From Candidatus Parcubacteria bacterium (lineage in GTDB: Bacteria; Patescibacteriota; Minisyncoccia; Phycocordibacterales; UBA918), in NCBI GenBank assembly GCA_021731405.1, contig JAKFXN010000001.1:29857-93856 (forward strand): a stretch of 64,000 nt of DNA, given 5' to 3'. The notes under the pieces were generated by a model, which was not told the DNA's origin, made no database searches, and saw only the letters and a program-made list of their open reading frames with translations. The position numbers and the translations under genes were made by a program. This document shows positions 22,667-54,350 of the stretch, piece after piece (position 1 is the stretch's first letter; every line of letters begins with the position of its first letter).

Positions 22667-22668
22667 TG

Positions 22669-35845: not shown

Positions 35846-35849
35846 ATGG

Positions 35850-36917
35850 TTAGCCGCGACGCTTGAACTCAAATGTTCTAAAGAAAAATCGTAAAGTAAA
35901 GAGAATAATAAAGATGCCAAGGAAAATACCCCCTACCACTTTCCAAGGTAAGACCCAGAAGGTAAAGCTAAACTCATCAACAATATCATCGTAGCCACGG
36001 TTAATAAGTGCTGTAGCGGTATAACGACCAAACAACAGCTCTCTGTCCCAACTAATATCGCGAGTGCGAAGTGACTTAGGTAACACAAACCAAGGCTCAA
36101 GCTCTACAAAGCCTACCTCCTCACCAAACAAATTGGTAATACGAACTTCACCATATGGGTTCACATGTACCGATCCGGTATTTTCATACAAAATCCGCAT
36201 ATCGATAGGACCTTTCTCAAACCACCATGAGGGACGCGCGAGTGAAAAATCTTTTGTTTCACCCCCCTTCACTACTTCTCCTGGTACTGTAATAAAAAAT
36301 AAGGTTCCGATGCGAGCTACAATCGGCGAACGAGCCGTGCCAGCGCCGCCGTTGTCACCTTCATCTTTGACGGTAGACACCAAAACACCGCCGTAATATC
36401 CGCCTGGCTCAGCGTCAGCTGGAATACTAATAGTTACAGGCACACGAGCCCGTTCCCCTAGATTAAGGGTAAACGAATTTTCTGGAAAACTAATGTAGTC
36501 TTTGATTGTGTGTGGGCCGCGCTCCTCACCCAAAAACACCATTGCTCGAGAAGCATCATTACTTCCTGCAATATCCTCAACCACCAGTTCAAACCTGCGG
36601 CCGTCACTGATGCGGTTTGAAACTGATATTTCGTAGACAACTGTCTGCCCAGGCTTAACTTCAATTTCTGCTCGACCAGGGCCAACCACAAAGTCCCCCT
36701 GATTCACCGTCCCAGAAAGCTTCTCGAGTTTATACCAAGGTGCAGCAGGTGCGGCCTCCTCAGTAGTTGAAGTGGCTTCTGTCTCTACAGACAAAACACT
36801 CTCGTCTTCTAAGACTTGAGTATTTTCTTGTGCAGATACTGCAAGCACTCCTATTGTGAACACAAAGAGTGTGAAGGCAGTTTTATAAGCTAATGTAATA
36901 ACATTTTGTGTAGTCAT
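35850..36917 (-). CDS. Surface protein with DUF916/DUF3324-like (CscC-like) architecture: signal peptide, beta-sandwich region, C-terminal TM plus a basic tail
   Basis: 355 aa. Central segment ISFPENSFTLNLGERARVPVTISIPADAEPGGYYGGVLVS and C-terminal KVVGGIFLGIFIILFTLRFFFRTFEFKRRG. Confidence 0.5.
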   Translation of the reverse strand: MTTQNVITLAYKTAFTLFVFTIGVLAVSAQENTQVLEDESVLSVETEATSTTEEAAPAAPWYKLEKLSGTVNQGDFVVGPGRAEIEVKPGQTVVYEISVSNRISDGRRFELVVEDIAGSNDASRAMVFLGEERGPHTIKDYISFPENSFTLNLGERARVPVTISIPADAEPGGYYGGVLVSTVKDEGDNGGAGTARSPIVARIGTLFFITVPGEVVKGGETKDFSLARPSWWFEKGPIDMRILYENTGSVHVNPYGEVRITNLFGEEVGFVELEPWFVLPKSLRTRDISWDRELLFGRYTATALINRGYDDIVDEFSFTFWVLPWKVVGGIFLGIFIILFTLRFFFRTFEFKRRG

Positions 36918-36938
36918 AGGTATGAGACTACACTACCG

Positions 36939-37658
36939 CTATTGTGGAGCTACCGTCAAGGTTGCGGTTGCAGTGTAGGTGTCGACAACGAGACCTGGAT
37001 TTGGATTATTGGGTACATGAACACGGAAATGAAGGGTTGAAGTAGCACCAGTTACCGCATCTGTATCTCGGTCAATGATTTGGAAGGTGGTCGTCGCTGG
37101 TGTCATCCAACATCGATCAACAGTGTATCCCCCACCAGCATTGCAAATTGTACCGTTATTAAGGAAAGATTGATCGAGGTCAGAGCTATCAGCTGCACTC
37201 ATAGTATAAGCAAAAACAGCGGCTGTACTGGCAGTTGAGAAGAGGAATGATGGCTCAAATGGATTAGTAGTACTACCGGTAGTACTTGCTGGGTAATCGC
37301 GGATAGCGCTACTACCAGTAATCTCTCCTTCCATTGTTTGGAGGGTGCCGTTATCGAAAAAGGCAATGTCCATAGTGTAGCCTGTTGGACTGTTGGTTTG
37401 TACCACTACTGTAGTAGAGCCGTTTGCTGTACCTCCTGTAATACCGTTTAGAGAACCAGAGAGCGTTGTATTATTAGCATCAACAATGAACGATGTTTCA
37501 CCAACAATTTCTTGTGAGATAGTGAATGGACCACTAGTATCCTGTGCCCTACCGACACGAGGCTCCGCAAAGAAATATAAAGCAAAGAGTACTGCCACAA
37601 TAAGGACGGCGGCAATAAATGCTTGCGTGAGTGAAGTTAAATAAAATTTTGTGTTCAT
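36939..37658 (-). CDS. Small secreted protein, paralog of 35078..35845 (WxL-like without Trp)
   Basis: Shared motifs ITGGTANGSTTVVVQTNSPTGY and TSTLHFRVHV...TYTATATLTVAPQ. Confidence 0.5.
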   Translation of the reverse strand: MNTKFYLTSLTQAFIAAVLIVAVLFALYFFAEPRVGRAQDTSGPFTISQEIVGETSFIVDANNTTLSGSLNGITGGTANGSTTVVVQTNSPTGYTMDIAFFDNGTLQTMEGEITGSSAIRDYPASTTGSTTNPFEPSFLFSTASTAAVFAYTMSAADSSDLDQSFLNNGTICNAGGGYTVDRCWMTPATTTFQIIDRDTDAVTGATSTLHFRVHVPNNPNPGLVVDTYTATATLTVAPQ

Positions 37659-41100: not shown

Positions 41101-44100
41101 GTAAATGTCTCAGTCCCTACTCCAGAAACTTCAAGGTTTGCAAAAGCTGAAGTCCCAGTCATTGTCCCAGAAGCTACTCCTCCCAACGATGTTAAGAATA
41201 CCGTCCCGTTATTGGCATCAAAAGTTCCGCTATTTACATAATTCCCATTTACGATTAATTCCGCTGGTGCCTCGACAGTACCCTGCGTAATGGTTAAATT
41301 ATTCACTTCGGTGCTGGTTCCGAGGAGTAAGCCCGACCCGCCAACAGTAAGATGATTAAGGGCATTTGCCCCAACTAAGTCTCCCGAAAATTCTGGAGAA
41401 AGTTGGAAAGACATAATCTCACAACCAATAGCTGAGCCAGTGACAGATGAACAAGCGGTAAGACTTCCTTCTTTACCGAGGTAGAGATAATTACCACCAA
41501 CACTTAATGCCCCCATTGCAACCACTCCCGTTGCACCGGTAGGAGAACCGTTTGAGTCACGACCCGCGACATAGATAGGGTTTGTAGAAGAAGCGAGGTT
41601 ATAGACTTGCAGTTCACAACCAACGGCTGAATCTGGAATTTGGGAACAGGTCGTAGCATTATCTTCTTTACCAAGAAAGAGATGCTCATTTTTTATCACG
41701 ACTGAATATACTAACCCGGTAAACGTACCAACAGAACCACCGACGTCACGACCGGCACGATAAATAGGGTTCGTACTTGAAGAAATATCGTACACCTGAA
41801 GTTCGCAGTTATATGCTGCGCCTGCAACTTGAGAACAGGCAGAAGAACCTCCAGCGTTGGCAATATATAAATAATTGCCTGACTTGGCCATGCTTAAAAA
41901 TACATTGCCACTACTTCCTCCAGCATCTCCCTCAGCGTCACGACCGGCACGATAAATAGGGTTTGTACTTGAAGAAATATCGTACACCTGAAGCTCGCAA
42001 CCCGCCGCTGAACCTGGTGTCGGAGAACAAGCTGCAGTGTCACCGCCCGTACTGGCATACAGATAATCCCCATTAACAACTAAACTATAGACACTATTTA
42101 CACCCGAACCTGTTGATGACCCAGTACTATCACGTCCCGCCACATAGACCATATTTGTACTTGAAGAGATATCAAACACCATCAGTTCACAGCCGTCTCC
42201 CGCACCTGACGTTTGCCCGCACGAAGCACTGTTGAGTTCCTTCCCTGCATACAAATAATTACCTGACGCCGCTAAACTTAAGAAAAATAGCTGTGAGTTA
42301 CCATTGAGTGCACCATCATGATCTATTGAGGTAAGGAAGACAGGGTTTGTCGGATCAGTAATATCAAAAGACATCAGTTCACAACCCTGAGCGTTGGTCC
42401 CACTTTGGGTACAAGCGGTATTTACCCCTCCCTTACCAACAAACAAAATGTTGTCTTTAATGGTAAATGAAGAAATAAACTCCGCAAAGTTACCGTCCGC
42501 GGATCCGTCCACATCTCGCCCCGCGACGTAAATCATGTTGGTTGGATCAGAAACATCATACACTTGAATCTCACAGCCGATCGCCGAACCAGGAGTTTGT
42601 GAACAAGGAGTAGCCTCCCCAGCAGTACCAATAAATAAATAGTTGCCGTAGGTGATTGATTTATTGATAGTAACTGCGTCGGTACCTGTTGCTGATCCGT
42701 CCATATCCACCGCTCCAGAAAAACCAACAAGTGCTGTATCTGTATATATCTGTCCACCATTATTATCGAAGGTGCCTCCGTTGTGAAAGCTTCCAACAGT
42801 TAAATTTGTTGGCGCAACAAGACTTGAGCCAGCGCTGATGTAAAGATTTGAAGTTGAAGCAGAAGTAGTAGCAATGCTGTACGATGAAGAATTATCAAAA
42901 TCTAATGTAGAAAAGCTACTAGTTGCTGTCAAAATCCCATCAACCACTCCCGACCCAGTCATGTATACCACACCACCATTAGCATTAAATATTCCTCTAT
43001 TGATGAAATCCCCAGAAGCTTGTATAGATGGTGCTGAAACAAATTCTCCCCTGCTAATCAAAAAATCTCCATTAGAAACAAATTCTTCTCCGTTTAAGAA
43101 ATGAAGAATATCCGCATCAGACACAGTGTCGTAAGTAAAGTTAAGCGGATTTATTTGTACCGTAGATGAAGCACCGTACGCAATCACATGCTCATAGTAA
43201 AGCGGTATATTTCGTACCCCTATCCCCGTACTATACCCACTTACGAACGTAGTGGCGTCATTAGCATCACCATCAAGCCATATTACAAAAGGGGTACCGC
43301 TCGTAGCTGAAGAAACGTCTGCATTTGAAAATTCCCAAGCGCCACTACTATTTGTGGTAGTACTAAAAATACTTGGCGTTGAAGTACCGACCCACATCTT
43401 GATAGTTTTTCCCGAACCAGCGGTCGTTACGCCTGCGTCAGTGTACAATGTACCGGCAAAGTACGGAGACGGGGTTTCGCGGATAGCTAAGTGAATAGCC
43501 GCTGCGTCGTCAGTTGTGGCGTAGGTATAACCAACCGATCGTGCGCCTTGGCCAGCGGTAGTTTCCCGACCGAGCATACTAGCCTGCGTAGCAGCGAGCA
43601 CAATACTCTGCAGCGCAGTTGTGTTTGCGCCAGCAGTTAGGGCTGTGTTTCTACCAGTATAGGCTCCTACATACCGCATACTATTAGTACCCAAAGAACC
43701 ATCGTCTACTGACTGTTCACTGTACGCTAGGTTGTTTTGGAGTAATACATATCCGGTTGTTTCTGTATTCCCTGCTGCTTGTACAGAAGCTGCATTTGCG
43801 TACATTACCGTTGCATTATTGGTACGTGTTACCTCAATAGTCTGACTCCCCGTTGGGACACTTGACCCAAGAAAGAATGCGGTCACTCGAGCAGGTTCAG
43901 TGGTAGTGTCGATAGCCTCTGACACTTGCGTCATTGTTACTCCACCATAAGTTACTGAAGTAATGTAGTCTGCATTTGCTATTGTAGTCACAAACACGAG
44001 CACACCTTCAGGTGAGCCGGTATCTCCATGTGTCCAACTAAATGAAGTGGAGGAAGCGTTACCGCTTGTACCAGTATGACTTTCTGAAGAAGTACTGTGG

Positions 44101-44231
44101 GACACCGCCGCTAAAGCACTTGGTGCAAAGAGAACAAAATACGCAAAAGTAAAAAATAGAACCAGAAGAAAACCGAGGCTTTTTTTAGTTGCTTGGTTAG
44201 CGGTTTTGGTTGTGGTGATTGTTGTGTACAT
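38109..44231 (-). CDS. Giant (2040 aa) secreted repeat protein: 8 LVIVD-like beta-propeller repeats (C.L.VYD.S.STNP.Y.AGRD), 8 Cys-pair repeats (YRC.LSSDC.A.GDF), Ig-like regions and a Gly-rich C-terminus
   Basis: Signal peptide LGFLLVLFFTFAYFVLFAPSALA. The periodic repeats were read directly from the translation. Confidence 0.7.
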   Translation of the reverse strand: MYTTITTTKTANQATKKSLGFLLVLFFTFAYFVLFAPSALAAVSHSTSSESHTGTSGNASSTSFSWTHGDTGSPEGVLVFVTTIANADYITSVTYGGVTMTQVSEAIDTTTEPARVTAFFLGSSVPTGSQTIEVTRTNNATVMYANAASVQAAGNTETTGYVLLQNNLAYSEQSVDDGSLGTNSMRYVGAYTGRNTALTAGANTTALQSIVLAATQASMLGRETTAGQGARSVGYTYATTDDAAAIHLAIRETPSPYFAGTLYTDAGVTTAGSGKTIKMWVGTSTPSIFSTTTNSSGAWEFSNADVSSATSGTPFVIWLDGDANDATTFVSGYSTGIGVRNIPLYYEHVIAYGASSTVQINPLNFTYDTVSDADILHFLNGEEFVSNGDFLISRGEFVSAPSIQASGDFINRGIFNANGGVVYMTGSGVVDGILTATSSFSTLDFDNSSSYSIATTSASTSNLYISAGSSLVAPTNLTVGSFHNGGTFDNNGGQIYTDTALVGFSGAVDMDGSATGTDAVTINKSITYGNYLFIGTAGEATPCSQTPGSAIGCEIQVYDVSDPTNMIYVAGRDVDGSADGNFAEFISSFTIKDNILFVGKGGVNTACTQSGTNAQGCELMSFDITDPTNPVFLTSIDHDGALNGNSQLFFLSLAASGNYLYAGKELNSASCGQTSGAGDGCELMVFDISSSTNMVYVAGRDSTGSSTGSGVNSVYSLVVNGDYLYASTGGDTAACSPTPGSAAGCELQVYDISSSTNPIYRAGRDAEGDAGGSSGNVFLSMAKSGNYLYIANAGGSSACSQVAGAAYNCELQVYDISSSTNPIYRAGRDVGGSVGTFTGLVYSVVIKNEHLFLGKEDNATTCSQIPDSAVGCELQVYNLASSTNPIYVAGRDSNGSPTGATGVVAMGALSVGGNYLYLGKEGSLTACSSVTGSAIGCEIMSFQLSPEFSGDLVGANALNHLTVGGSGLLLGTSTEVNNLTITQGTVEAPAELIVNGNYVNSGTFDANNGTVFLTSLGGVASGTMTGTSAFANLEVSGVGTETFTTAYASGQVWFRVFAIDETNDVLYAGSGDNGILYRCILTTNCDASGDFAVAYDTTHQIVYSIVVDEVNGALYVGVGSPASGALYRCVLSSDCNASGDFSEVYDADGNGFYALGIDTQNNVLYGGDYNVFYRCPLSSDCNAQGDFSSFAISGYSGDVVIDEVNDVMYVTVGYGGAGAIYRCVLSSSCDANGDFSFVINNAGIDYLTPIEIDTTNQVLYAGGGGSSDIIYRCPLSSDCNASGDFTTITGLDTDVGDTLGGITALQFDSGHGFLYAGGFGSGQILFRCETSTACDSAADWALVQTISDTTFTGAMTIDTSRGTLYVGDDDAVLRRGGGVTLTATASTTSFTVAAGKSVTAPSSALSVTNGDFTNNGAFDANGGEVILLGAVHALNGTTTFFDLTKNATVTATTTFGAGTLTTIEGEWNFTGTSSSERHLLRSSTNGQYWYVNPATTTLANIDVKDSNNVNVSTVVCDIGCLDSGNNVNWPFTPAEAIEFYSAAPYHFYVGQATTTLGAVVIAESVSPSITTANDIRISIATTTSNFRFNTGTTNLTFGGTAAGKVSTTASYEEAGATLVLTVTENFAASDTLIVNGITAGSFAAVSTTTSAFELHTDGNTAGEPAALDTQTIRITGSVTIANHAAGQVENEFSAQNKDDVPLFAFNLVGQSEVITVTDLVVSLSGVQGLDSSNLSDFNLYRDNDSDGVLDGGDLLLDGDGILTFNGQHGAVTFSQNFVASTSVNYLVTADTTGTQLGDSVVFSLPALGLTALGATSVYAPVILTTVNTSQHFRNSSGGGGGNVARIGDPAPAGAGVVEGGETGGGVGAGEEEDGENIAADPDFARPNATGDSHNEWTNGENALLSDGTYATAASTNLRQSYNGFNFNVPDGNTIQGIAVKLDASGSTAAGTIDVSLSWDSGNSYTTAKATPTMAGSDVVYLVGGASDLWGRSWTAAQFSGANFRLRVSAQPASNTIRLDALEVRVYHQAGGGSSGGGGGI

Positions 44232-44252: not shown

Positions 44253-47200
44253 CTACACTACTGGTTCTTCACTTGGTTCTTCGACCGGGGCTTCAGGTTC
44301 TTCTTCAGGAGTCGGCTCTTCGGTCTCTTCTTCTGCAGGTTCTTCTGTTTCCTCCTCTTCGGTTTCTATAGTAGTTTCTTCTACAACTTCTTCATTCATC
44401 TCTTCGTCAATTGGTTCTTCCAGTGGTGGCGGTGTCTCCTCTTCTGCAACCTCCCCGTCGTTTGTTTCTTCTCCACTTGGTTCTTCCTCTACTTCTTCGT
44501 CTGGTGCAGGTTCTTCTCCGCTTGGCTCCTCTGCTGGTTCTTGAGGTACTACTTGCTCATCAAGCAGTCGCCGCAAGTCTTCCGCGTTGAGACATACTCC
44601 ATCCACACAAATCTCTTCCTTCACTTCCACTCGGTCTGCTTTCAAGGTAAGGATTGAGAGAACACCATCCACGAAGTTATTTGCTAAAGTAACAAGGCGA
44701 TTCCAAACTGTTTCTTCGCCTACCTCCCCTTCAATATCAAGCGCACCTGCTACCAGTGCGGCAATCATCGTCTTTCCTTCTTCGTCCAAGAATCGTTCGT
44801 TGAGTGAAACAAACATTACAATCTGTCCAACACGTACTTCCTCTCCACTATCCAAAGTCACTCGCTCGCTGCGAATATTTTTGAGCGCTGCCAATGCCGC
44901 CGCTTGCGCTTCAGCTTCAGCGAGCATTTGTGCTTCTTCTGCTTGTCCATCGGTTGAAGTAGCGATAAGTGGTACACATGGCGCTTCACCCGAAGCGCTT
45001 CCAGCGCCGTAGTAACAACCGTCATTAATACGCGGGTCGTTATCTTTATTGATAGGAGTTACTACCGGGTCAACCAAGTCATCTCCGAATTGATTAATAT
45101 ATGTATCTGAGTACGCTCGTGTCGCTTCAAAATCTTCAAGCGCAATACCAACCACCATTCCAGTTGAAGAAGCCTTCATTGCCACACCTGGTACTGAAGA
45201 AAGCATAAGCTCATCACCTGCTTTGATTTCTCCGTTTTCGTTTGAAAGTCGGACTGGCACACGTCCAGCTAAAGCTACTCCGTATCCTTCTTCACCAGCA
45301 CTGAGTGAACTGTCGTCAAATCCGAGGAGGAGACCCGGCTTTGTGGTCACAACTCCGATAACTTTTTCTTCTGTCTCTTCGCTCGCTTTACCAATTGAAA
45401 GTCCGTTCTTGAGGTACACAATTTCACCCGTCTTAAGAGACTCATTTGAGAAGTACATTTCCGCTAAGTCGGAATTACCCGTGTGATATGAAACTGCTGA
45501 GATACGCCCAGTGGTTGAAGCATTGCAACTACCGTCGTTATCAACACAGATACCACCGTACCCAATCTGGAGTCCAGCGTTGTTATTAGTTGTCCCGTCT
45601 CCGATAGTCGTCATACCGCGCGCACCAACAGTGAAGAGTGAGGTGCCAGCATTTTGGAGATCAATGTACTTTGAAGCAGTTGTTGAAGAGAATGAACCAC
45701 CTCCGTTTCCAAAGTTCATAAGTAGCCCCGTACCCACATAGGTCGAAGTGTCTTGGAAGAGCTTGAGGAGTGCAGCAGTGGTGATAGTCGAAGAGTAGCC
45801 ACGAAGTGCATTGCCTTGAGTAGTACCTTGCGTCTCTCCGTACACACCAGCTGGCTCAAAGGTACCGCCAGCATCACCCGCTGTGGTACCACGTACACCA
45901 AACGTTCGCGCAAAGCCTGAGAGCGCAGTGTTTTCTCCACGAGTGTTGTTTCCTCTATCGGTCTGTACTTCGAGTCCACGGACCGTGTTACCAAATGTGG
46001 TACTGTCTTCAAGTCTAAAGATGTTGCCTACGATAGTAGTTGTAGCGGTGGTGGTAGCGTAGAGATAAGTGTTGTTACCAAACTGCACTGCACTTGGCGT
46101 ACTGTTGGTGAAAGTAAAATATTGCTCAAGCCCTGCAGTACCCGCAGTATTAAAGTTGCGTCGTTCAATTGCTAAACGGGCACCTGGAGTAGTGGTACCG
46201 ATACCCACGTTTCCTGAAGATAGTGTGGAATCAATACCATCAACTCCGGTACCAAAGATAAGGTTGCCGATATTGAGAGTATTGTCTGCTGAAGCAGATA
46301 CGGCATCTATGTCATACCCGATGATGATGTTGTTGTTTCCGGTGGTGAGGTTGTCCGCCGTAAATGCTCCCAAGGCAATGTTACCTTCACCAGTCTCACT
46401 ATTTTCCAAAGCACTTACTCCAAGCGCTGTATTTCGCCGACCAGTTGTATTAGAAGCTAAAACACCTCTACCTATTGCGGTATTATCAGCACCAGTTGTA
46501 TTTGCAATCATTGTGAAGAAACCCAGCGCTGTGTTACTACCACCAGTTGTGGTGTTACTCATTGAGCTTTGCCCTACCGCGGTATTAGTACCACCAGTTG
46601 TTAAGGAACTGAGAGCGTACGAACCAATACCAACGTTATCAAGTCCTATGAACTGGTTGGTAGAAGAACCCAGTGTAAAGTTACCAGCCTGACGACCCAT
46701 AAAGATATTATCGCCATAAGTGTCGTCTAACGCGTAAGTATGAATAAAGCGATCACTTCCTACATTAAGTACCCCCGCAGCACCCCCACTTGTGGTTTCT
46801 GGAATATCTATATTCCCAGTCACACTCACATTACCAGCGACCGTGAGCTTTGAGCCCGGAGTTGAAGTACCAATACCCACATTACCTGAAGATAAGGTTG
46901 TCCCTGTACCATCAAGCCCAGTACCAAAGATAAGGTTGCCGATGTTGAGTACATTGTCAGCTGTGGCTGTGATGTTGTCGATATCGTAGCCGATGATGAT
47001 GTTGTTGTTTCCGGTGGTGAGGTTATCAGCAGCTTGGTAGCCGAGGAGAATGTTGTTGTCTGCACCAGTAGCCATGTTATATCCTGCACGGCGTCCAATC
47101 ACGGTAAAGTTACTTGCTTGATAATTAACACCATTGCCAAACGCCGCATTAGTTCCCAGAGCAACTGAATTAGAAGACGTGGCGGCATGGAAAGCAGAAT

Positions 47201-50200
47201 AAGCACCGATAAAAGAATTATCATTACCAGCACGAAGCTGGTCTCCTGCTGCTGCTCCAAGGAAAGAGTTAGCATAACCAGAGCTCACGCTACTTCCTGC
47301 TGCATATCCTAGAGCAGTGTTATGAGAACCGTCTGTTTCACCAGCCAATGCAAAGGTACCGATACCGATGTTGAAGCCACCTGTGGTTATTTGCCGACCA
47401 GCTAAGGCACCCATCAAGATATTGCTATCTGAAGCGCCCGTAAGACTTTCTCCAGCGCGGTAACCAAAAAGATAGGCACCTATGGTAGATGAAGCACTGA
47501 TGACCCGTTCACCACCAAACGCAATACCAGTAGTGCTACCCAGTGCAAGATCGGTGCCATTAAACGTAAAGTCTGCACTATCAACAAGTGCGGTTGCTCC
47601 TGAGTTTGTATACATAATGCGGTTAGCCGTGTATGAAGAAGGGGTATCAGTAAGTGCGAGGAACGTAGTTGCGCCACCACCAATACCAAGCGTACTTGTA
47701 GCTACCCAACGAGTTGAGGTGCCGGTGGTTTGGAGAATCATACCGAGAGTACCCGACGCATTTGCTCCGTCGCGGAAGGCGCCGGTGAGACGAATGTCTC
47801 CAGCGATTGAAAGCTTGCTTGCAGGAGTTGAAGTACCTATTCCAACGTTCCCTGACGCAAGCGTTGTCCCTGTACCATCAAGACCAGTACCAAAGATAAG
47901 GTTGCCGATGTTGAGTACATTGTCAGCTGTGGCTGTGATGTTGTCGATATCGTAGCCGATGATGATGTTGTTGTTTCCGGTGGTGAGATTGTCGGCTGCG
48001 CGGTAGCCAAGGAGTACATTATTATTAGCACCTGTTTGTGCGTTGTATCCGGCCTGGAAACCGATTGCGGTGTTGTTAGTAGCTTGAAATGGTGTGCCTA
48101 CATTTACAGCCGCAGAACCTCCGCGCAACGCTCCGCTACCAATAGCGATAGTAGCTGATGCTTGGAGCAAACCAGCTGCCTCAAGTCCTATAAACTCATT
48201 GTAGTTACCACTGTTTCTATACCCTGCCCCTGCACCGAAGAAGTTACTAAACGATCCTGTAGTTGAAGCACCTGCCGCAAAACCAATTATGTTGTTGAAA
48301 CTACCTGAACTGAAAGCTCCAGCGTTGCTACCAAACATATTATTGTAATCACCAGTACTTTCCCCTCCAGCGTAAAATCCAATAGCGTTGTTTTCATCAC
48401 CGGTGTTATTTTGACCAGTGTAATACCCAACAGCAACAAGACGACTTCCGGTGTTATTTTCGCCTGCAGAAAAACCGAGAGCATTGAGGTTTGCGCCAGT
48501 ATTGTCTTGTCCAGCAGCCGTACCTACCAAAGCACTGTATCCTCCAGTGTTATTTTGACCAGCGTTATGACCAATAATTGTTGAGCCGTCAGACTGATTA
48601 TAGGTACCTCCACCCACCAGCACATTATCGTTACCGCTATTTGAAAACCCTACACTCTGACCAATCATTATGTTATTTTCTCCGTAATTGTTATAACCTG
48701 CTTGGTAGCCGATAAATATATTTTCACTGGAAGTACTATTAAGACCTGCTTCCCGTCCAATCTTTATTACATCTATAGAGGATGAAGCGGTAAACATTCG
48801 CGTACCGCCAAATGAGATGCCGTCATCATTACCCAACCCAAGGTTAGTTCCATTAAACGTGAGATCAGCTGAATCAATAAGCGCAGTTGCACCGGAGTTT
48901 GTGTACATGATGCGATTAGCGGTAAATGACGACGGTGTGTCAGTGAGTGCCAAGAAAGTTGAAACGCCACCAATACCAAGCGTACTTGTAGCTACCCAAC
49001 GAGTTGAGGTGCCCGTGGTTTGAAGAACCATCCCAAGAGTTCCAGACGCGTTTGCGCCGTCACGGAACGCGCCGGTGAGGCGCATACCCCCGACCACTGT
49101 AAGTTCAGAAGACGGAGTGGTAGTACCGATACCTAAACGTCCACTCACATCAAATACACTAAGTGGTGTCCCTGCACTGTTACGTAATTCTAAAAGGCTG
49201 GCTGTTTGAGTAGAGGTCGCCTGTGCCAAGATAGTAGGAATAGTAGTACTTGAAGAACGCACATCAAAAACTCCCTGTACATCAACTGTGTTAAGACCAA
49301 GTAGTCCTGGTTCACCAAGGATAAGGCGTGTCTGACCACCAAATGTAAAGGCCGAGTAGTAATCCGTTAGATTAATTGTCCCGACATTTCCGTTATTATT
49401 AGAAGAGAGCGCTAGGCCGGTAGTGGTGTAGTTATATCCAATTGTCCCAACATTGTTTCCGTTACCAGAATCAAGAGTGATCAAGTCACCGAGCGGACCG
49501 CGAATATAGAGAGGTGTCGAAGGATCATCGATACCATACCCCATACCAACATATCCATTATGAAGGACAGTCATAAGAGAATCCCCAGTTGATGACGCCA
49601 CGACAAACGGATTACTACTACCTGTCCCTACAACAGTAAGTCTATTATTTGGCGTTGAAGTACCAATACCTACATTTCCACTCGCTAGAGTAGTACCTGT
49701 ACCATCAAGACCAGTACCGAAGATGAGGTTACCGATGTTGAGACGGTTGTCGGCAGTAGCAGTTACGTTATCAATATCGTAACCAATAATGATGTTGTTA
49801 TTTCCGGTCGTGAGGTTGTCGGCTGCACGATATCCAAGGAGGATATTGTTGTCTGAGCCAGCCTGTGCAGCATAGCCTGCCCGGTAGCCAAGAGCGACGT
49901 TGTTGGTTGCATTAAAAGGTGAGGTTCCCGAACCTCCTCGATAGGCTTCCCCTCCGATGATTACAGAAGAAGTGGCTCTGAGGTTATATCCAGCTTCATA
50001 ACCAAGCATTTGGTTATATACGCCCTGATTAAAATATCCAGCCTGATAACCAATAAGTTCGTTATATGAACCTGTATTGCTATACCCTGCATAATTACCG
50101 ATAAGAGAGTTAAACGTACCAGTATTATTAGTTCCCGCGTGGCCACCTAGTCTTAGAACGCCATTGCTTGGATCAGCGCTAATCGCTCGAGTACCACCAA

Positions 50201-53200
50201 AAGCAATTCCCGTAGTAGCATTAAATCCTAAATTAGTGCCATCAAACGTAAAGTTAGATGCATCTGTGAGCGCTGTCCCACCACTGTTGGTGAAGATAAC
50301 TCTATTAGCAGTGAGTGAGTTTTGGGTATCAGAAAGACCAGTAAAAGTATTGTCTCCAAAACCAAGGGTTGAGGTAGCAACCCAGCGAGTTGAGGTGCCG
50401 GTGGTTTGGAGAATCATGCCGAGTGTTCCAGAGGCGTTTGCTCCGTCACGGAAGGCGCCAGTAATATATGTGTCTCCTACTATAGTAAGCCTGCTACTTG
50501 GAGTAGTCGTACCAATACCAACGTTTCCATTACTATCAACATTGATGCGACGATTACCTTGGCCGTCAGCGATGATGATGTTGTTTGAAAGTGATGAAGA
50601 AAGGCCAGAAACATTTGCCCCAAGAATGGTGTTGTAATCACCAGTGACAATACCCAGGCCAGTTTCATTACCGATAATAGTGTTATTCTCTCCATCTACA
50701 ATGTTGCTTCCAGTGGTGCGTCCTATACCAATGTTTCCTCCTCCTGTAGCCGCATTAAGAGCATAGTATCCGATACCCACATTACCCCAACTGGTTGAGT
50801 TAGAACCAACTGCCAATCCTCCGATAGCAACATTGTAGTTACCAGTAGTATTTTGATCTAAAGCATTGTATCCAACAGCGGTGTTATGCTCGCCAAGAGT
50901 ATTGTTCACCAGCGCAATAGAACCAACAGCGGTATTGAACTGTCCCGCAGTATTGTCTGCCAGCGCGGCATTTCCGACTGCAGTGTTATTAGAAGATGAA
51001 GTACTAACCATAAGAGCATTAGTACCAAGTGCTGTATTAGAATTACCAGTTATGTTTTGCTGTAAGGCATACCGACCCATGGCGATATTGCTGTAGCCAG
51101 TGGTTGTAAACTGCATCGCCCCTTGCCCGACAACAGTGTTATCAGAACCGGTAGTCAAAGCACCAAGTGCAAACCTACCAACACCCAAGTTATCAATTCC
51201 GAGGAACTGATTGGTACTCGAGCCAAGGGTAAAGTTACCAGCCTGATACCCCATGAACTGGTTAGTTCCATATGTATTATCTAGAATATAACCATGAATG
51301 AAGCGTTCGCCATCAATATTAAGTACTCCAGCCGCACCGCCTGCAGTAGTACTGAGAAGATTAACGTTATTTGTGACACTAATTGTGCCCGCCACACTGA
51401 GCCTAGAAGCTGGTGTTGAGGTACCAATACCAAAATTAGTGCCATCAAAGATTAAACTAGCAGAGTCTGTAAGTGACGTACCACCACTATTAGTGAAGAT
51501 AACTCTATTAGCAGTGAGTGAGTTTTGAGTATCAGAGAGACCGGTAAAAGTATTGTCTCCAAAACCAAGCGTTGAAGTCGCTACCCAGCGTGTTGAGGTG
51601 CCGGTGGTTTGGAGAATCATGCCGAGTGTTCCTGAGGCATTTGCTCCGTCACGGAAGGCACCGGTGAGACGAAGAGTGCTCAAAAACGCATCTCCAGACA
51701 CTGAGAGATTTGTAGTAGAGGCGTTTCCTAGAGTTGAAGCCCCACTCACAGAAAGTGCTCCAGAGGTCAAGGTACCGCCGTTTAAGTTAAGTGGCGTTGC
51801 TCCGCCAGTAGTATATAGACCATAGTCTATGAGTGCTTGACGTAAATCTGCTGTTGCTCCCGCCTTTACTATTGGAGTAGCCCCAAAGAAACCGAGTTGT
51901 GAAGCGCTGAGATTATCTTTAATTGAAATAACTGTACCTAGTCCTGACAAAAGGTTTATTGTTCCGTTCTGACCACTGCCGTCTCCTAATCCTGCAGATA
52001 ACTCAAGATTTCCTCCTTCTCCATCAAAACCAGCTTCAGCTGACCCACCAAAAAATCCGAAGTTTCCTCCTCTGGTGCGACCGGTACCTCCAAAAGCTTG
52101 CATCTCTCCACCAATTCCACCTCCAAAGAGCGCATTACCACCAGATAAATAGACTGAGTTTGCGGAACCAGACGTTACCGCAGCAGCTTGAATTTCTAAG
52201 TTTGTGCCAGGAAGAGACTCTATATATCTTGTGTAGACAGTGCCTGTAGATGTGACGTTTCCACCAACATACGCATTCCCTCCCACTGTAAGTCGTGAGC
52301 CAGGAGTAGTACTTCCAATACCGAGATTAGTCCCATCAAAAACAAAGCTGGCAGAATCAGTAAGTGACGTACCGCCACTATTGGTGAAGATAACTCTATT
52401 AGCGGTAAATGAAGACTGGGTATCACTGAGTCCCAGATACGTGCCGTTACCGAGACCAAGAGTTGAAGTCGCTACCCAACTGGTACCGATACCTGTACTA
52501 CTCAGAATCTGCCCAACTGTACCAGACGCATTTAGGGTGTCACGGAAAGAGCCGGTGAGGCGAAGGTCGCCAACAACTGAAAGCGTACTGCCCGGAGTTG
52601 TTGTGCCGATACCAACTCTGCCGGCGCTAGTGACTGTAATTCGGTTAGTACCAGCAGTAGCAAAACCGAGACCTGTTCCTTCCATGTACATACCAGTACT
52701 CGTATCTCCTGTCCAAGAGTACTTTGGTGCTGCGGCAGTGCCAGCTCCGACCATCTGGAATTGTCCTACCCCTCCATTGAGAGCCCAACGCATTCTTTCT
52801 GCACCACCAAGAGAAAGACTAAACTGGGAGGCAGCACTTCTGTACAGACCTACGTCCGAGCCCAATGCGATACCTCCCGTTGCAGAAGTACTGTCGGCGA
52901 GTGTGAGGGTTGAGTATGGAGTAGTTGTCCCAATACCAATGTTTCCGCTACTGAGCACTGTAAAGACTTCTGTCACCCCACTAAAAAGTGCGAGTACTTT
53001 TCCGACACCATTTTGAATAATTGAAAGAATTGGTGAAGACGACGTAGCCTGCATGGTGTCCGCTTCATCAGAACGAAGGAACGAGGTGGTCGCTATACCA
53101 GCTAGTGTCTGAGCATTTTCTGCTTCAAACGCAGCGGGTACGGCACCAAGGATTTTTCGTGGACTCATTTCTCCGTCCCATACTGGTGTAGTAGTACTAA

Positions 53201-53558
53201 TGCCGCCAATCTCAACTCCAAGATATAGCGTCTGATTGAAGTTGACGTTTGTCAGAGTAGAGACGTCTCCGAGCATAACTGAAAAGAGACCGTTTTGAAC
53301 TTGGACACGGTTTCCGCTCGTGCGCACCTCACTCCATACCGCAGTAGAAGTAGCGCCAACGTCCGTTGGTACAAGCCAAAAATTCATGTTGTAAAGACCG
53401 TCTGGCACCGCCACACCAGAAGCGTTCGTAAGCTTTCCTTGGTAATTTATTTCAGGATTAAATTGCGCAAACGAAGTAGTTGGGACAAGGGCAAGGAGCA
53501 ACAACCCTACGAGCGTAGGAAGAATATATCGGTTTAGGTTGTTACTAAAAAAGATCAT
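44253..53558 (-). CDS. Giant (3101 aa) secreted protein with phage tail-fibre / YadA-head-like beta-roll repeats (NTA[VI]G..AL..NTTG), repeated GIGTTTP..L.V.G motifs, a putative C-terminal intramolecular-chaperone (peptidase S74-like) region and a polyacidic tail
   Basis: N-terminal signal peptide, hundreds of ~14-aa Asn/Gly/Thr-rich repeats, four ~60-aa near-identical modules (ADNLTTGNNNIIIGYDIDNITATADNVLNIGNLIFGTGLDGTGTTLASGNVGIGTSTP) and a C-terminal E/P-rich tail. Confidence 0.7.
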   Translation of the reverse strand: MIFFSNNLNRYILPTLVGLLLLALVPTTSFAQFNPEINYQGKLTNASGVAVPDGLYNMNFWLVPTDVGATSTAVWSEVRTSGNRVQVQNGLFSVMLGDVSTLTNVNFNQTLYLGVEIGGISTTTPVWDGEMSPRKILGAVPAAFEAENAQTLAGIATTSFLRSDEADTMQATSSSPILSIIQNGVGKVLALFSGVTEVFTVLSSGNIGIGTTTPYSTLTLADSTSATGGIALGSDVGLYRSAASQFSLSLGGAERMRWALNGGVGQFQMVGAGTAAAPKYSWTGDTSTGMYMEGTGLGFATAGTNRITVTSAGRVGIGTTTPGSTLSVVGDLRLTGSFRDTLNASGTVGQILSSTGIGTSWVATSTLGLGNGTYLGLSDTQSSFTANRVIFTNSGGTSLTDSASFVFDGTNLGIGSTTPGSRLTVGGNAYVGGNVTSTGTVYTRYIESLPGTNLEIQAAAVTSGSANSVYLSGGNALFGGGIGGEMQAFGGTGRTRGGNFGFFGGSAEAGFDGEGGNLELSAGLGDGSGQNGTINLLSGLGTVISIKDNLSASQLGFFGATPIVKAGATADLRQALIDYGLYTTGGATPLNLNGGTLTSGALSVSGASTLGNASTTNLSVSGDAFLSTLRLTGAFRDGANASGTLGMILQTTGTSTRWVATSTLGFGDNTFTGLSDTQNSLTANRVIFTNSGGTSLTDSASLIFDGTNFGIGTSTPASRLSVAGTISVTNNVNLLSTTAGGAAGVLNIDGERFIHGYILDNTYGTNQFMGYQAGNFTLGSSTNQFLGIDNLGVGRFALGALTTGSDNTVVGQGAMQFTTTGYSNIAMGRYALQQNITGNSNTALGTNALMVSTSSSNNTAVGNAALADNTAGQFNTAVGSIALVNNTLGEHNTAVGYNALDQNTTGNYNVAIGGLAVGSNSTSWGNVGIGYYALNAATGGGNIGIGRTTGSNIVDGENNTIIGNETGLGIVTGDYNTILGANVSGLSSSLSNNIIIADGQGNRRINVDSNGNVGIGTTTPSSRLTIVGDTYITGAFRDGANASGTLGMILQTTGTSTRWVATSTLGFGDNTFTGLSDTQNSLTANRVIFTNSGGTALTDASNFTFDGTNLGFNATTGIAFGGTRAISADPSNGVLRLGGHAGTNNTGTFNSLIGNYAGYSNTGSYNELIGYQAGYFNQGVYNQMLGYEAGYNLRATSSVIIGGEAYRGGSGTSPFNATNNVALGYRAGYAAQAGSDNNILLGYRAADNLTTGNNNIIIGYDIDNVTATADNRLNIGNLIFGTGLDGTGTTLASGNVGIGTSTPNNRLTVVGTGSSNPFVVASSTGDSLMTVLHNGYVGMGYGIDDPSTPLYIRGPLGDLITLDSGNGNNVGTIGYNYTTTGLALSSNNNGNVGTINLTDYYSAFTFGGQTRLILGEPGLLGLNTVDVQGVFDVRSSSTTIPTILAQATSTQTASLLELRNSAGTPLSVFDVSGRLGIGTTTPSSELTVVGGMRLTGAFRDGANASGTLGMVLQTTGTSTRWVATSTLGIGGVSTFLALTDTPSSFTANRIMYTNSGATALIDSADLTFNGTNLGLGNDDGISFGGTRMFTASSSIDVIKIGREAGLNSTSSENIFIGYQAGYNNYGENNIMIGQSVGFSNSGNDNVLVGGGTYNQSDGSTIIGHNAGQNNTGGYSALVGTAAGQDNTGANLNALGFSAGENNTGSRLVAVGYYTGQNNTGDENNAIGFYAGGESTGDYNNMFGSNAGAFSSGSFNNIIGFAAGASTTGSFSNFFGAGAGYRNSGNYNEFIGLEAAGLLQASATIAIGSGALRGGSAAVNVGTPFQATNNTAIGFQAGYNAQTGANNNVLLGYRAADNLTTGNNNIIIGYDIDNITATADNVLNIGNLIFGTGLDGTGTTLASGNVGIGTSTPASKLSIAGDIRLTGAFRDGANASGTLGMILQTTGTSTRWVATSTLGIGGGATTFLALTDTPSSYTANRIMYTNSGATALVDSADFTFNGTDLALGSTTGIAFGGERVISASSTIGAYLFGYRAGESLTGASDSNILMGALAGRQITTGGFNIGIGTFALAGETDGSHNTALGYAAGSSVSSGYANSFLGAAAGDQLRAGNDNSFIGAYSAFHAATSSNSVALGTNAAFGNGVNYQASNFTVIGRRAGYNMATGADNNILLGYQAADNLTTGNNNIIIGYDIDNITATADNVLNIGNLIFGTGLDGTGTTLSSGNVGIGTSTPGSKLTVAGNVSVTGNIDIPETTSGGAAGVLNVGSDRFIHTYALDDTYGDNIFMGRQAGNFTLGSSTNQFIGLDNVGIGSYALSSLTTGGTNTAVGQSSMSNTTTGGSNTALGFFTMIANTTGADNTAIGRGVLASNTTGRRNTALGVSALENSETGEGNIALGAFTADNLTTGNNNIIIGYDIDAVSASADNTLNIGNLIFGTGVDGIDSTLSSGNVGIGTTTPGARLAIERRNFNTAGTAGLEQYFTFTNSTPSAVQFGNNTYLYATTTATTTIVGNIFRLEDSTTFGNTVRGLEVQTDRGNNTRGENTALSGFARTFGVRGTTAGDAGGTFEPAGVYGETQGTTQGNALRGYSSTITTAALLKLFQDTSTYVGTGLLMNFGNGGGSFSSTTASKYIDLQNAGTSLFTVGARGMTTIGDGTTNNNAGLQIGYGGICVDNDGSCNASTTGRISAVSYHTGNSDLAEMYFSNESLKTGEIVYLKNGLSIGKASEETEEKVIGVVTTKPGLLLGFDDSSLSAGEEGYGVALAGRVPVRLSNENGEIKAGDELMLSSVPGVAMKASSTGMVVGIALEDFEATRAYSDTYINQFGDDLVDPVVTPINKDNDPRINDGCYYGAGSASGEAPCVPLIATSTDGQAEEAQMLAEAEAQAAALAALKNIRSERVTLDSGEEVRVGQIVMFVSLNERFLDEEGKTMIAALVAGALDIEGEVGEETVWNRLVTLANNFVDGVLSILTLKADRVEVKEEICVDGVCLNAEDLRRLLDEQVVPQEPAEEPSGEEPAPDEEVEEEPSGEETNDGEVAEEETPPPLEEPIDEEMNEEVVEETTIETEEEETEEPAEEETEEPTPEEEPEAPVEEPSEEPVV
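46896..47012. repeat. Intragenic direct DNA repeat, copy A (~115-130 nt, nearly identical to copy B 973 bp downstream)
   Basis: GTACCAAAGATAAGGTTGCCGATGTTGAGTACATTGTCAGCTGTGGCTGTGATGTTGTCGATATCGTAGCCGATGATGATGTTGTTGTTTCCGGTGGTGAG. Confidence 0.8.
47869..47988. repeat. Intragenic direct DNA repeat, copy B
   Basis: Same ~105-nt string as copy A with at most 1-2 mismatches. More diverged copies lie near 46230-46350 and 49690-49830. Confidence 0.8.
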
Positions 53559-53564: not shown

Positions 53565-54350
53565 TTATTCGCTGGCTTTATTACGTTCTTCCTCAACACC
53601 CGAAACAGGTACCGTCACAAATGGATATTCCACTACCTCACCCTCATTTTTTTTGTATTCAATCACTCCATCAGCATCTTCACTAAACACCACACTGACT
53701 TCATCTGAAAAAAGATTCTGCACGTCTTCTACTGTTTTAATATCTCCTTCACTTGGAAGAATAAAAATTCCCTCCACTCCTTCTCTATCCATTCTTCGCA
53801 CCTCACTTTCATCCTCAAAAAGTGGGTACTCCATGACCGTTGAGTACAGAGTCGTTGGTTGCGGCTCTGCAGTAGCAAAATTCTCAGAGGTCACTACCGG
53901 CAACTCTTCAACTATCGAAACCTCACCAGCCCCGCTGAGACGAGCCATGTTTATGTGTTGAGGTAAAAGTGCTGAGGAGGTGTACAGCCCTGTCCCGATC
54001 ATGAGCCCCAGACCAAGTGCGAGCGTGGCTGCTAACTGGGCACGAACTCGGACAAGCTTCACTTTTCCCCGAGCTGTTTTTTTGATCACCCCCACTTCCT
54101 GCTTCACGGTCTGCTCGCGCTTGCGCTCGAGACTGAGCTGCTGTTTTCGAACCGTCTGTTCGAGCTCTGCTGTCTCAGCAAAATTTCGAAGTGAGGTGGT
54201 GTCGATAAACCACTGTCGTCCGATTTGTGAAGCGACGATTTTTTGTTCACGGGCGAGACGAGCTACATAGTCACGCGAATACGAAACAAGCTTGGACGCA
54301 TCCTTGATTGGAAGAAAGGTAGCTCCGTTTATTTCTACTTGTGTCGACAT
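53565..54350 (-). CDS. Membrane-anchored protein with an N-terminal excisionase/MerR-type HTH (HTH_17-like), a central TM and an acidic C-terminal domain
   Basis: FLPIKDASKLVSYSRDYVARLAREQKIVASQIGRQWFIDTTSL matches the excisionase-family HTH pattern. TM LAATLALGLGLMIGTGLY. Confidence 0.55.
   Translation of the reverse strand: MSTQVEINGATFLPIKDASKLVSYSRDYVARLAREQKIVASQIGRQWFIDTTSLRNFAETAELEQTVRKQQLSLERKREQTVKQEVGVIKKTARGKVKLVRVRAQLAATLALGLGLMIGTGLYTSSALLPQHINMARLSGAGEVSIVEELPVVTSENFATAEPQPTTLYSTVMEYPLFEDESEVRRMDREGVEGIFILPSEGDIKTVEDVQNLFSDEVSVVFSEDADGVIEYKKNEGEVVEYPFVTVPVSGVEEERNKASE

What the first reader, a model, noticed from the sequence alone, without database searches (positions are those of the whole stretch)
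44253..53558. 3101-aa tail-fibre-like giant protein with a candidate self-cleaving chaperone domain and a polyacidic tail
The translation shows hundreds of NTA[VI]G..AL..NTTG beta-roll repeats and repeated GIGTTTP..L.V.G motifs, both typical of phage tail fibres and YadA-like heads. Near the C-terminus a region (...GNSDLAEMYF...GEEGYGVALAGRVPV...) resembles the intramolecular chaperone / peptidase S74 domain that caps tail-fibre proteins. It is followed by about 90 aa of E/P-rich acidic tail. A chromosomal, non-phage giant fibre would be a candidate host-attachment organelle.
Basis: partly seen in the sequence, partly recalled or inferred. Interest (0 to 1): 0.65.

Follow-up and report, generated by a model that had tools for sequence, protein, structure and literature searches.

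The report
Giant self-processing surface fibre of Patescibacteria
This chromosomal gene of an ultrasmall (CPR/Patescibacteria) bacterium encodes a 3101-residue secreted fibre built like a phage tail fibre, and it most likely folds as a trimer with the help of a phage phi29-type (not S74-type) self-cleaving end cap, so it is a good candidate for how these bacteria grip their hosts.

Summary
The 3101-aa ORF (44253..53558, minus strand) is real.

The C-terminal "chaperone" is not Peptidase_S74. There is no S74 hit and no SDxxxK motif. It is a relative of the phage phi29 gp12 autochaperone (Peptidase_G2):
- In a family profile, DLAEMYF aligns to the first residue of the released gp12 fragment. This predicts cleavage at Ser2696|Asp2697.

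The gene sits among housekeeping genes. Its neighbourhood (GatB, HTH protein, fibre, second giant protein, four small secreted proteins, GAPDH) is conserved in at least six other Paceibacteria genomes, so it is cellular, not prophage. Phage contigs carry only the end-cap module.

Best reading: a Sec-exported, N-terminally anchored trimeric fibre whose C-terminal cap nucleates trimer folding and is then shed. Cleavage and host binding are inferred, not shown. I rate it a new variant of a known kind.

The parts
44253..53558 (-). Whole gene: 3101-aa fibre precursor plus stop codon
   Evidence: ORF list and translation. It lies 6 nt after the upstream HTH gene and 21 nt before the downstream 2040-aa gene.
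53466..53558 (-). Residues 1-31: predicted Sec signal peptide (MIFFSNNLNRYILPTLVGLLLLALVPTTSFA|Q)
   Evidence: This is the only hydrophobic stretch in the protein (Kyte-Doolittle >1.6 only for windows starting at residues 8-15). In homologues the conserved N-domain starts at about residue 30. The cleavage site is inferred.
53043..53465 (-). Residues 32-172: conserved post-signal-peptide N-domain (INYQGKL...GLFSVMLG...LYLGVEI...EMSPRK), the putative cell-proximal anchor
   Evidence: Alignment A2. A profile search finds 53,989 representative proteins at E<=1e-3 and 26,780 at E<=1e-10, almost always at residues ~30-175. No Pfam family and no PDB relative. None found in viral contigs.
46167..53042 (-). 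Residues 173-2464: modular fibre shaft (10 GIGTTTP motifs, 5 connector modules, 5 beta-roll blocks)
   Evidence: Motif positions, windowed self-comparison and PHROGs tail spike / virion structural hits.
50595..51152 (-). Beta-roll block 1 (residues 803-988, 11 repeats of 17 aa)
49758..50123 (-). Beta-roll block 2 (residues 1146-1267, 6 repeats)
   Evidence: PSSM scan; similar to block 1 in the windowed self-comparison.
47931..48734 (-). Beta-roll block 3 (residues 1609-1876, 15 repeats)
   Evidence: PSSM scan.
46965..47435 (-). Beta-roll block 4 (residues 2042-2198, 9 repeats)
   Evidence: PSSM scan.
46293..46721 (-). Beta-roll block 5 (residues 2280-2422, 8 repeats)
   Evidence: PSSM scan.
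50211..50558 (-). Connector module, example copy (residues 1001-1116). Other copies are at residues 301-440, 596-737, 1461-1577 and 1898-2030.
   Evidence: 53-74% identity between copies. Low confidence as a monomer in AF2 (pLDDT <50), so the fold is unknown.
45471..46166 (-). Residues 2465-2696: conserved distal region that would become the mature C-terminal tip. It includes the Cys pair 2671/2678 (GGICVDNDGSC).
   Evidence: Conserved in alignment A1; C61 and C68 of the query segment are near-invariant. Cys positions.
45450..45479 (-). GNS|DLAEMYF (residues 2694-2703): predicted autocleavage site between Ser2696 and Asp2697
   Evidence: The A1 profile aligns DLAEnYfS to residue 1 (DFAEYFES) of PDB 3GQH, the released phi29 gp12 fragment. 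Mature gp12* ends at residue 691 (PMC6542822). A and E of the motif are invariant and D, L, Y near-invariant in 32 homologues. 26 of 40 phage matches begin exactly at residue 2696.
45084..45470 (-). Residues 2697-2825: phi29 gp12-type (Peptidase_G2-like) autochaperone core
44553..45083 (-). Residues 2826-3002: extra C-terminal region absent from phage versions (long helix, beta-hairpins, conserved Cys pairs 2848/2861 and 2984/2989)
   Evidence: AF2 secondary structure, A1 conservation and Cys positions. Phage homologues end 13-37 aa after the core.
44256..44552 (-). Residues 3003-3101: Glu/Pro-rich acidic tail (44 E, 17 P of 99)
   Evidence: Composition. 41 of the 43 G2-bearing representatives listed carry 14-57 E/D/P in their last 100 residues (36 carry 25 or more); the lowest of the 43 is 9.

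Best explanation
The gene encodes the precursor of a long, homotrimeric cell-surface fibre of a Patescibacteria (Paceibacteria-class) bacterium.

Proposed mechanism:
1. The N-terminal signal peptide sends the unfolded chain through Sec.
2. The 140-aa N-domain, shared by tens of thousands of such proteins, holds the base of the fibre at the cell envelope.
3. The last part to emerge is a phi29 gp12-type C-terminal autochaperone. It trimerises and nucleates C-to-N folding of the shaft.
4. The shaft is made of YadA-like 17-residue beta-roll blocks alternating with GIGTTTP-containing connector modules.
5. The chain then cuts itself between Ser2696 and Asp2697.
6. This sheds a 405-residue fragment: the G2-like core, a Cys-containing extension and the acidic Glu/Pro tail. 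It exposes a conserved distal tip (residues ~2465-2696) that contacts the host cell.

Shown here:
- the architecture, and the homology and fold of the C-terminal cap;
- conservation of the DLAE motif at the module boundary;
- the beta-roll fold of the repeats;
- the signal peptide-like N-terminus;
- the chromosomal, syntenic context.

Inferred: trimer state, direction of folding, actual cleavage and release, N-terminal anchoring, and host binding.
For: C-terminal cap:
- Foldseek top hit is 3suc (pre-mature gp12), E 8.3e-5.
- The A1 profile matches 3gqh_A at E 0.008, with DLAE on residue 1 of the released fragment.
- PF11962 matches 13 of 32 homologues, against 1 of 32 for S74.
- The A and E of the motif are invariant.
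- Phage homologues (40 loci, 29-39% identity) begin at the predicted boundary and sit at fibre C-termini.
- gp12 needs this domain to trimerise and then sheds it (PMC3357383). Mature gp12* ends at residue 691 (PMC6542822).

Shaft:
- 50 repeats of 16-17 aa against 0.14 in shuffles.
- AF2 pLDDT 80-94 with a regular solenoid.
- PHROGs tail spike E 1.3e-40.

Export and anchoring:
- A single N-terminal hydrophobic segment.
- The N-domain sits at residues ~30-175 in about 54,000 representatives.

Cellular origin:
- Housekeeping flanks.
- The GatB-to-GAPDH neighbourhood is conserved, wholly or in overlapping parts, in eight Paceibacteria loci.
- 67 loci, all in Patescibacteria MAGs.
- 43 of 117 N-domain representatives have the same N-domain ... 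G2-cap architecture, at lengths of 605-5078 aa.
Against: - This protein's own Pfam G2 score (18.5 bits) is below the gathering score of 25.
- The residue before the conserved Asp varies across the family (S, A, T, Y, F, L, I), so the scissile-bond context is not fixed.
- From my own knowledge of Xiang et al. 2009 (not held in the library), release of the phi29 domain is ATP-dependent. ATP is not expected outside the cell.
- The distal region before the cut is conserved rather than variable. That is unusual for a receptor-binding tip.
- No trimer model was run. The connector modules were predicted poorly as a monomer.
- No expression or proteomic evidence exists.
Confidence: 0.65

Rival explanations
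1. Same surface fibre, but the gp12-like domain is a permanent, non-cleaving trimerisation clamp. It would work like the structurally related capsid decoration/cement proteins or the non-S74 tips of Bdellovibrio MAT fibres. The Cys-containing extension and acidic tail would then be part of the mature distal end.
For: - The P1 residue is variable.
- The CPR-specific extension has conserved Cys pairs. That looks like more than a throw-away propeptide.
- The ATP dependence of gp12 release (own knowledge) is hard to satisfy outside the cell.
Against: - The D-x-A-E motif is conserved exactly at the position of the gp12 cleavage site, with A and E invariant.
- Phage homologues begin precisely there.
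- gp12 is the closest structural and sequence relative, ahead of any decoration protein.
Confidence: 0.22
2. One reading: the C-terminal domain is a Peptidase_S74 intramolecular chaperone that cleaves at a catalytic Ser-Lys dyad.
For: - The beta-roll repeats are the kind that usually co-occur with S74 in Bacteroidota 'tail fiber domain-containing proteins'.
- Some CPR proteins with the same N-domain do end in S74.
- One distant homologue (P0073) carries S74.
Against: - No PF13884 hit for the whole protein at E<=0.1 or for the C-terminal segment at E<=10.
- No SDxxxK motif anywhere.
- Fold and profile searches point to phi29 gp12 and not to endosialidase or T5 pb1 chaperones.
Confidence: 0.02
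3. The gene is a phage or prophage tail fibre, or a remnant, that happens to lie in a bacterial contig.
For: - PHROGs tail spike and virion structural protein hits.
- The G2-type cap has relatives in 40 viral contigs.
- The upstream gene has an excisionase-like HTH_17 domain.
Against: - No phage structural genes in the flanks. The neighbours are GatB, Obg, SecA, MurB, GAPDH, transketolase and ribosomal proteins.
- The same neighbourhood, including the HTH gene, is conserved across several Paceibacteria genomes.
- The N-terminal signal peptide and N-domain are absent from viral contigs.
- GC content is uniform across the window.
Confidence: 0.03
4. It is a classical trimeric autotransporter adhesin (type Vc secretion).
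For: The repeat blocks are structurally closest to the head domains of trimeric autotransporter adhesins (TAAs). JGI labels some relatives 'trimeric autotransporter adhesin'.
Against: - There is no C-terminal beta-barrel anchor. The C-terminus is a gp12-like domain plus an acidic tail, and no YadA_anchor or other Pfam hit was found.
- Patescibacteria are generally described as lacking an outer membrane (the Pam pilus preprint argues this for its system).
Confidence: 0.01

Closest known systems
Bacteriophage phi29 pre-neck appendage protein gp12 (Peptidase_G2, PF11962; PDB 3GQH, 3SUC)
   Same: - The same D-x-A-E motif at the first residue of the released fragment.
- The domain sits at the C-terminal end of a beta-helical trimeric fibre.
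- In gp12 it is needed for trimerisation and is then cut off.
   Different: - gp12 is an 854-aa cytoplasmically assembled virion protein with a right-handed pectate-lyase-like beta-helix.
- This protein is 3101 aa and Sec-exported. It has YadA-like beta-roll blocks and a cellular N-domain.
- It carries about 275 extra residues after the core (a Cys-containing region plus an acidic tail).
- Its own Pfam score is below the gathering threshold.
- ATP-dependent release, as in gp12, is unlikely outside the cell.
Bdellovibrio bacteriovorus MAT (mosaic adhesive trimer) fibres (PMC10769870)
   Same: - Chromosomal, phage-like trimeric fibres displayed on a bacterium that attacks other bacteria.
- A signal peptide followed by a conserved ~130-aa beta-rich N-domain.
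- A mosaic shaft with GIGTTxP-type motifs (weak match to 8ojn_C, E 0.48).
- A C-terminal self-cleaving chaperone in one subfamily.
   Different: - MAT chaperones are S74, or are absent; this protein uses the G2 type.
- MAT proteins are about 1000 aa and occur in a diderm.
- Homology of the two N-domains was not tested here.
Bacteroidota 'tail fiber domain-containing proteins' and trimeric autotransporter adhesin heads (YadA, UspA1, BpaC, CbpF)
   Same: - The 16-17 aa NTAxG..AL..NTTG repeats are homologous to those of more than 2000 Bacteroidota proteins.
- They fold like the head beta-rolls of trimeric autotransporter adhesins (TAAs).
   Different: - The Bacteroidota proteins mostly have a different N-terminal domain (PF26696) and end in S74.
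- TAAs end in an outer-membrane beta-barrel, which is absent here.
- The period is 17 aa rather than 14 aa.

Membership tests
Peptidase_S74 (PF13884) intramolecular chaperone | Match to the S74 profile at or above the gathering score | tested here: not met
   No hit for the whole protein at E<=0.1 or for residues 2661-3010 at E<=10. Only 1 of 32 homologues of the C-terminal region carries S74.
Peptidase_S74 (PF13884) intramolecular chaperone | Catalytic SDxxxK motif (Ser-Lys dyad) at the cleavage site (as stated in PMC10769870) | tested here: not met
   A regular-expression search finds no SDxxxK anywhere in the 3101 residues.
Peptidase_G2 / phi29 gp12 autochaperone (PF11962) | Match to the PF11962 profile at or above the gathering score (25 bits) | tested here: inconclusive
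   This protein scores 18.5 bits, E 0.0014, below the cut-off. 13 of 32 close homologues match at E<=0.01, best 2.6e-7.
Peptidase_G2 / phi29 gp12 autochaperone (PF11962) | Fold of the gp12 C-terminal domain | tested here: met
   [not shown]
Peptidase_G2 / phi29 gp12 autochaperone (PF11962) | Conserved acidic D-x-x-E motif at the first residues of the released fragment | tested here: met
   DLAE (2697-2700) aligns to D-F-A-E at residue 1 of 3GQH. E and A are invariant and D near-invariant in A1. The motif is present in the 32 of 43 G2-bearing CPR representatives where the pattern search found it, and in the 26 phage matches that begin at the boundary.
Peptidase_G2 / phi29 gp12 autochaperone (PF11962) | Autocatalytic cleavage after trimerisation, followed by release of the domain | not testable with these tools
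   Needs protein expression plus SDS-PAGE/MS, or proteomics.
Trimeric autotransporter adhesin (type Vc) | Head made of a left-handed parallel beta-roll of short repeats | tested here: met
   [not shown]
Trimeric autotransporter adhesin (type Vc) | C-terminal 12-stranded outer-membrane beta-barrel anchor (YadA_anchor) | tested here: not met
   No Pfam hit. The C-terminus is a gp12-like domain, a helical/Cys region and an acidic tail.
Bdellovibrio MAT fibre family | Signal peptide followed directly by a conserved ~130-aa beta-rich N-domain | tested here: inconclusive
   The same layout is present (signal peptide 1-31, conserved domain 32-172). Homology to the MAT N-domain could not be tested because no MAT N-domain sequence or structure was available (one search found no PDB relative).
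Bdellovibrio MAT fibre family | Trimeric beta-helical shaft related to solved MAT fragments | tested here: inconclusive
   Only a weak sequence match to 8ojn_C (E 0.48, residues 295-429). No trimer model was run.
Phage or prophage tail fibre | Encoded next to other virion structural or packaging genes | tested here: not met
   The flanks are housekeeping genes. The neighbourhood is conserved in Paceibacteria chromosomes.

The most novel reading that the evidence does not exclude
This protein stands for a very large, undescribed superfamily of Sec-exported fibres. The superfamily is defined by a 140-aa N-terminal envelope-anchor domain that has no Pfam or PDB representative (more than 26,000 clusters at E<=1e-10). 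Within it, a Patescibacteria branch has captured the phage phi29-type G2 autochaperone and adapted it to work outside the cell, without ATP. The adaptation would involve a lineage-specific Cys-containing extension and an acidic Glu/Pro tail, for example as an export-coupled folding nucleator or solubiliser. The resulting fibres, roughly 100 nm long, would be the primary host-recognition organelle of Paceibacteria. They would act together with the conserved neighbouring giant protein and the Pam-like pilin genes.
Probability: 0.3. Interest if true: 0.72.

Novelty: new variant of a known kind. Interest (0 to 1): 0.55.

Why it matters
Patescibacteria make up a large share of bacterial diversity and live attached to other microbes. 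Apart from type IV pili and the newly described Pam pili, almost nothing is known about how they attach.

This locus gives a concrete, testable candidate. It is a conserved chromosomal fibre with a precisely predicted maturation site (Ser2696|Asp2697). It has a defined N-terminal anchor domain shared by tens of thousands of proteins, and a conserved gene neighbourhood.

It also extends the phi29-type (G2) autochaperone from phage virions to exported cellular proteins. This parallels what was found for S74 in Bdellovibrio MAT fibres. It raises the question of how such a domain is released without ATP.

Finally, it corrects the annotation: G2-type, not S74.

Tried and rejected
- **Whole-protein scans.** Pfam and NCBIfam scans returned nothing. 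Only segment-wise and family-wise scans exposed the weak PF11962 signal.
- **Whole-protein PDB search.** It gave only a marginal hit to a Bdellovibrio fibre fragment, 8ojn_C (E 0.48).
- **Exact-protein look-up in public assemblies.** Nothing found.
- **Self-BLAST of the full protein.** It reported no internal HSPs. A windowed comparison was needed.
- **Downstream 2040-aa protein as a paralogue.** Tested and rejected: no significant similarity.
- **S74, prophage and classical autotransporter readings.** Each was tested and rejected (see rivals).
- **Xiang et al. 2009 (PMC2692858).** Could not be read. The ATP dependence and the catalytic roles of the gp12 residues therefore rest on my own knowledge.
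- **Two literature searches.** 'Peptidase_G2' and 'Patescibacteria + tail fiber' found no description of this family.
- **N-domain in viral contigs.** Nothing found, but with a single peptide pattern, so this absence is weak evidence.
- **Link between this N-domain and the Bdellovibrio MAT N-domain.** I could not test it.
Full report
**1. The observation**

The window holds one ATG-initiated ORF of 3101 codons at 44253..53558 on the minus strand.
- GNSDLAEMYF at residue 2694 and GEEGYGVALAGRVPV at residue 2755.
- A terminal 99-residue stretch (3003-3101) with 44 Glu and 17 Pro.

The repeat count was overstated:
- There are exactly ten G[IL]G[TS][TS]TP motifs and ten literal NTA[VIL]G cores.
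- An iterated position-specific scan finds 50 repeats with a 16-17 residue period. Shuffled sequences give 0.14.
- The repeats lie in five blocks (residues 803-988, 1146-1267, 1609-1876, 2042-2198, 2280-2422).
- A 115-140 residue connector module recurs five times at 53-74% identity.

So the protein is strongly modular and repetitive, but with tens of repeats, not hundreds.

**2. The C-terminal domain is phi29 gp12-type, not S74**

*S74 is excluded.*
- Pfam finds nothing in the whole protein.
- On residues 2661-3010, scanned alone, the only relevant hit is Peptidase_G2 (PF11962): E 0.0014, 18.5 bits, below the gathering score of 25. S74 does not appear even at E<=10.
- No SDxxxK motif exists anywhere.

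*Sequence evidence from the family.*
- A search with residues ~2610-3001 found 75 relatives. All that carry a name are Patescibacteria.
- Among 32 aligned relatives (A1), 13 match PF11962 (best 2.6e-7) and only one matches S74.
- The A1 profile matches PDB 3GQH, the released C-terminal fragment of the phi29 pre-neck appendage protein gp12, at E 0.008. The family motif DLAEnYfS aligns to DFAEYFES at residue 1 of that chain.
- Mature gp12* ends at residue 691 (PMC6542822). This predicts cleavage here between Ser2696 and Asp2697.
- In A1 the Ala and Glu of the motif are invariant, and the Asp, Leu and Tyr are near-invariant.

*Structural evidence.*
- An AlphaFold2 model built on A1 has pLDDT >90 over the core.
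- Foldseek independently ranks pre-mature gp12 (3SUC) first (E 8.3e-5).

*What is known about gp12.* Its domain is required for trimerisation and is cut off afterwards (PMC3357383). From my own knowledge of Xiang et al. 2009 (not readable here), cleavage follows trimerisation and release needs ATP.

**3. The shaft**

- PHROGs matches the repeat region to tail spike and virion structural protein families (E 1.3e-40 to 1.4e-31).
- A search with residues 700-1113 returned more than 2200 relatives. These are mostly Bacteroidota 'tail fiber domain-containing proteins', which usually end in S74.
- The AlphaFold2 model of this segment is a regular solenoid with one strand every 17 residues and pLDDT 80-94. 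The connector module is not predicted as a monomer.
- The structure is therefore beta-helical, not disordered, and of a type that is obligately trimeric in every known case.
- From a rise of about 4.8 A per 17-residue turn, the mature 2665-residue chain would span very roughly 75-110 nm. This is my own rough inference, not a computation.

**4. The N-terminus**

- The only hydrophobic segment is at residues 8-33, ending in SFA|Q. This is a signal peptide by inspection.
- Residues 32-172 form a conserved domain (alignment A2).
- Used as a profile, A2 finds 53,989 representative proteins at E<=1e-3 and 26,780 at E<=1e-10. The domain lies almost always at residues ~30-175, in proteins of 170 to 5078 aa.
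- It has no Pfam family and no solved relative by sequence. It was not found in viral contigs (one pattern only).
- It also occurs outside Patescibacteria, for example in a Cloacimonetes protein.
- Of 117 close representatives, 43 carry the G2-like cap 18-536 residues (about 170-375 in all but three) before the C-terminus. A D[LIVM]AE motif is found at the start of the cap in 32 of the 43, and the tails are usually acidic/proline-rich. At least 6 representatives instead have an S74-like motif.

The family is thus mosaic, with a constant base and alternative end caps. This is the logic described for Bdellovibrio MAT fibres (PMC10769870).

**5. Genomic context**

- The flanks encode GatB, Obg, SecA, MurB, GAPDH, transketolase, Rpe, RpiB, ribosomal proteins and a release factor.
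- GC content is even across the window.
- The order GatB - 310-aa protein - HTH_17 protein - fibre - second giant protein - 239/355/280/523-aa proteins - GAPDH is recovered, wholly or in overlapping parts, in eight Paceibacteria/'Nomurabacteria' loci (L055, L001, L002, L003, L004, L006, L007, L019).
- In L006 and L007 the orthologue is only about 2000 aa, so the number of modules varies between genomes.
- All 67 genome loci found with the C-terminal profile are Patescibacteria MAGs.
- Phage contigs hold only the cap module: 40 loci at 29-39% identity. 26 of the matches start exactly at residue 2696 with AD[LMV]AE.Y and end 13-37 residues before the stop.
- The roughly 275 residues that follow the core in this protein are therefore specific to the cellular lineage. 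They comprise a helix, hairpins, the conserved Cys pairs 2848/2861 and 2984/2989, and the acidic tail.

**6. Mechanism proposed**

The steps are: Sec export, N-terminal anchoring, C-terminal trimerisation by the gp12-like cap, C-to-N folding of the beta-roll/connector shaft, and self-cleavage at Ser2696|Asp2697. Cleavage would shed a 405-residue acidic fragment and expose a conserved tip that keeps one Cys pair (2671/2678).

- Shown: architecture, homology, predicted folds, motif conservation and context.
- Inferred: oligomeric state, cleavage, anchoring and host binding.

The main rival (about 0.2) is that the cap is retained as a permanent trimer clamp. The points for it are:
- the P1 residue is variable;
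- non-cleaving decoration proteins share the fold;
- ATP is absent outside the cell.

**7. Comparison and novelty**

- It works like phi29 gp12 at its C-terminus and like Bdellovibrio MAT fibres in overall design.
- It is not an S74 protein, not a type Vc autotransporter (no barrel anchor) and not a prophage gene.
- I found no paper describing this family. The Pam pilus preprint only notes that 'a tail fibre-like protein' co-localises with pam operons in CPR genomes.
- I rate it a new variant of a known kind: interesting for CPR biology and directly testable, but not a new principle.

Noticed in passing
window 38109..44231 (-): A second giant gene (2040 aa) starts 21 nt downstream of the fibre gene. 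It has an N-terminal hydrophobic segment and two kinds of Cys-containing repeats (…C.Q..G.A.GCE.QVYD.S..TNP… and …LY.G…YRC.LSSDCNASGDF…). It has no Pfam, NCBIfam or PHROGs hit and no similarity to the fibre. It is conserved next to the fibre gene in seven of the eight Paceibacteria loci checked.
   Followed up: partly
window 33510..37658 (-): Four small or medium genes (239, 355, 280 and 523 aa) follow in conserved synteny. The 280-aa protein has a weak NCBIfam hit to the CPR pilus tip pilin PamT (E 2e-13, far below the cut-off). The 239- and 280-aa proteins cross-match each other's orthologues at 25-37% identity. The 523-aa protein has an fn3 domain and a CbhB-like stretch. This may be a Pam-like donor-strand pilus cluster beside the fibre; the Pam preprint reports a tail fibre-like gene near pam operons.
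   Followed up: partly
window 53565..54350 (-): A 261-aa protein with an N-terminal HTH_17/excisionase-like domain ends 6 nt before the fibre gene's start codon. It is conserved in that position in related genomes, so it is a possible dedicated regulator rather than a mobile-element excisionase.
   Followed up: partly
window 53043..53465 (-), residues 32-172 of the fibre: The N-domain defines a family of about 54,000 representative clusters (26,780 at E<=1e-10). It has no Pfam-A model in the copy searched and no PDB relative. It is always placed right after a signal peptide, in proteins up to 5078 aa.
   Followed up: partly
L069 7446..8381 (+) and other IMG/VR loci L068-L107: Short (~300 aa) phage fibre proteins end in the same AD[LM]AE.Y...GRVP... 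cap, only 13-37 residues before the stop. Several lie on contigs of 115-235 kb (possible large phages).
   Followed up: partly
L019 1..11500: In this related MAG the orthologous fibre gene is broken into several ORFs. This could be frameshifts, assembly errors in the repeats, or pseudogenisation.
   Followed up: no
window 2819..6115 (+) and 8528..11959 (-): Two further large ORFs (1098 and 1143 aa) elsewhere in the window were not examined. The window has only one tRNA (Thr-TGT, 22668..22741) and no other Rfam hit.
   Followed up: no
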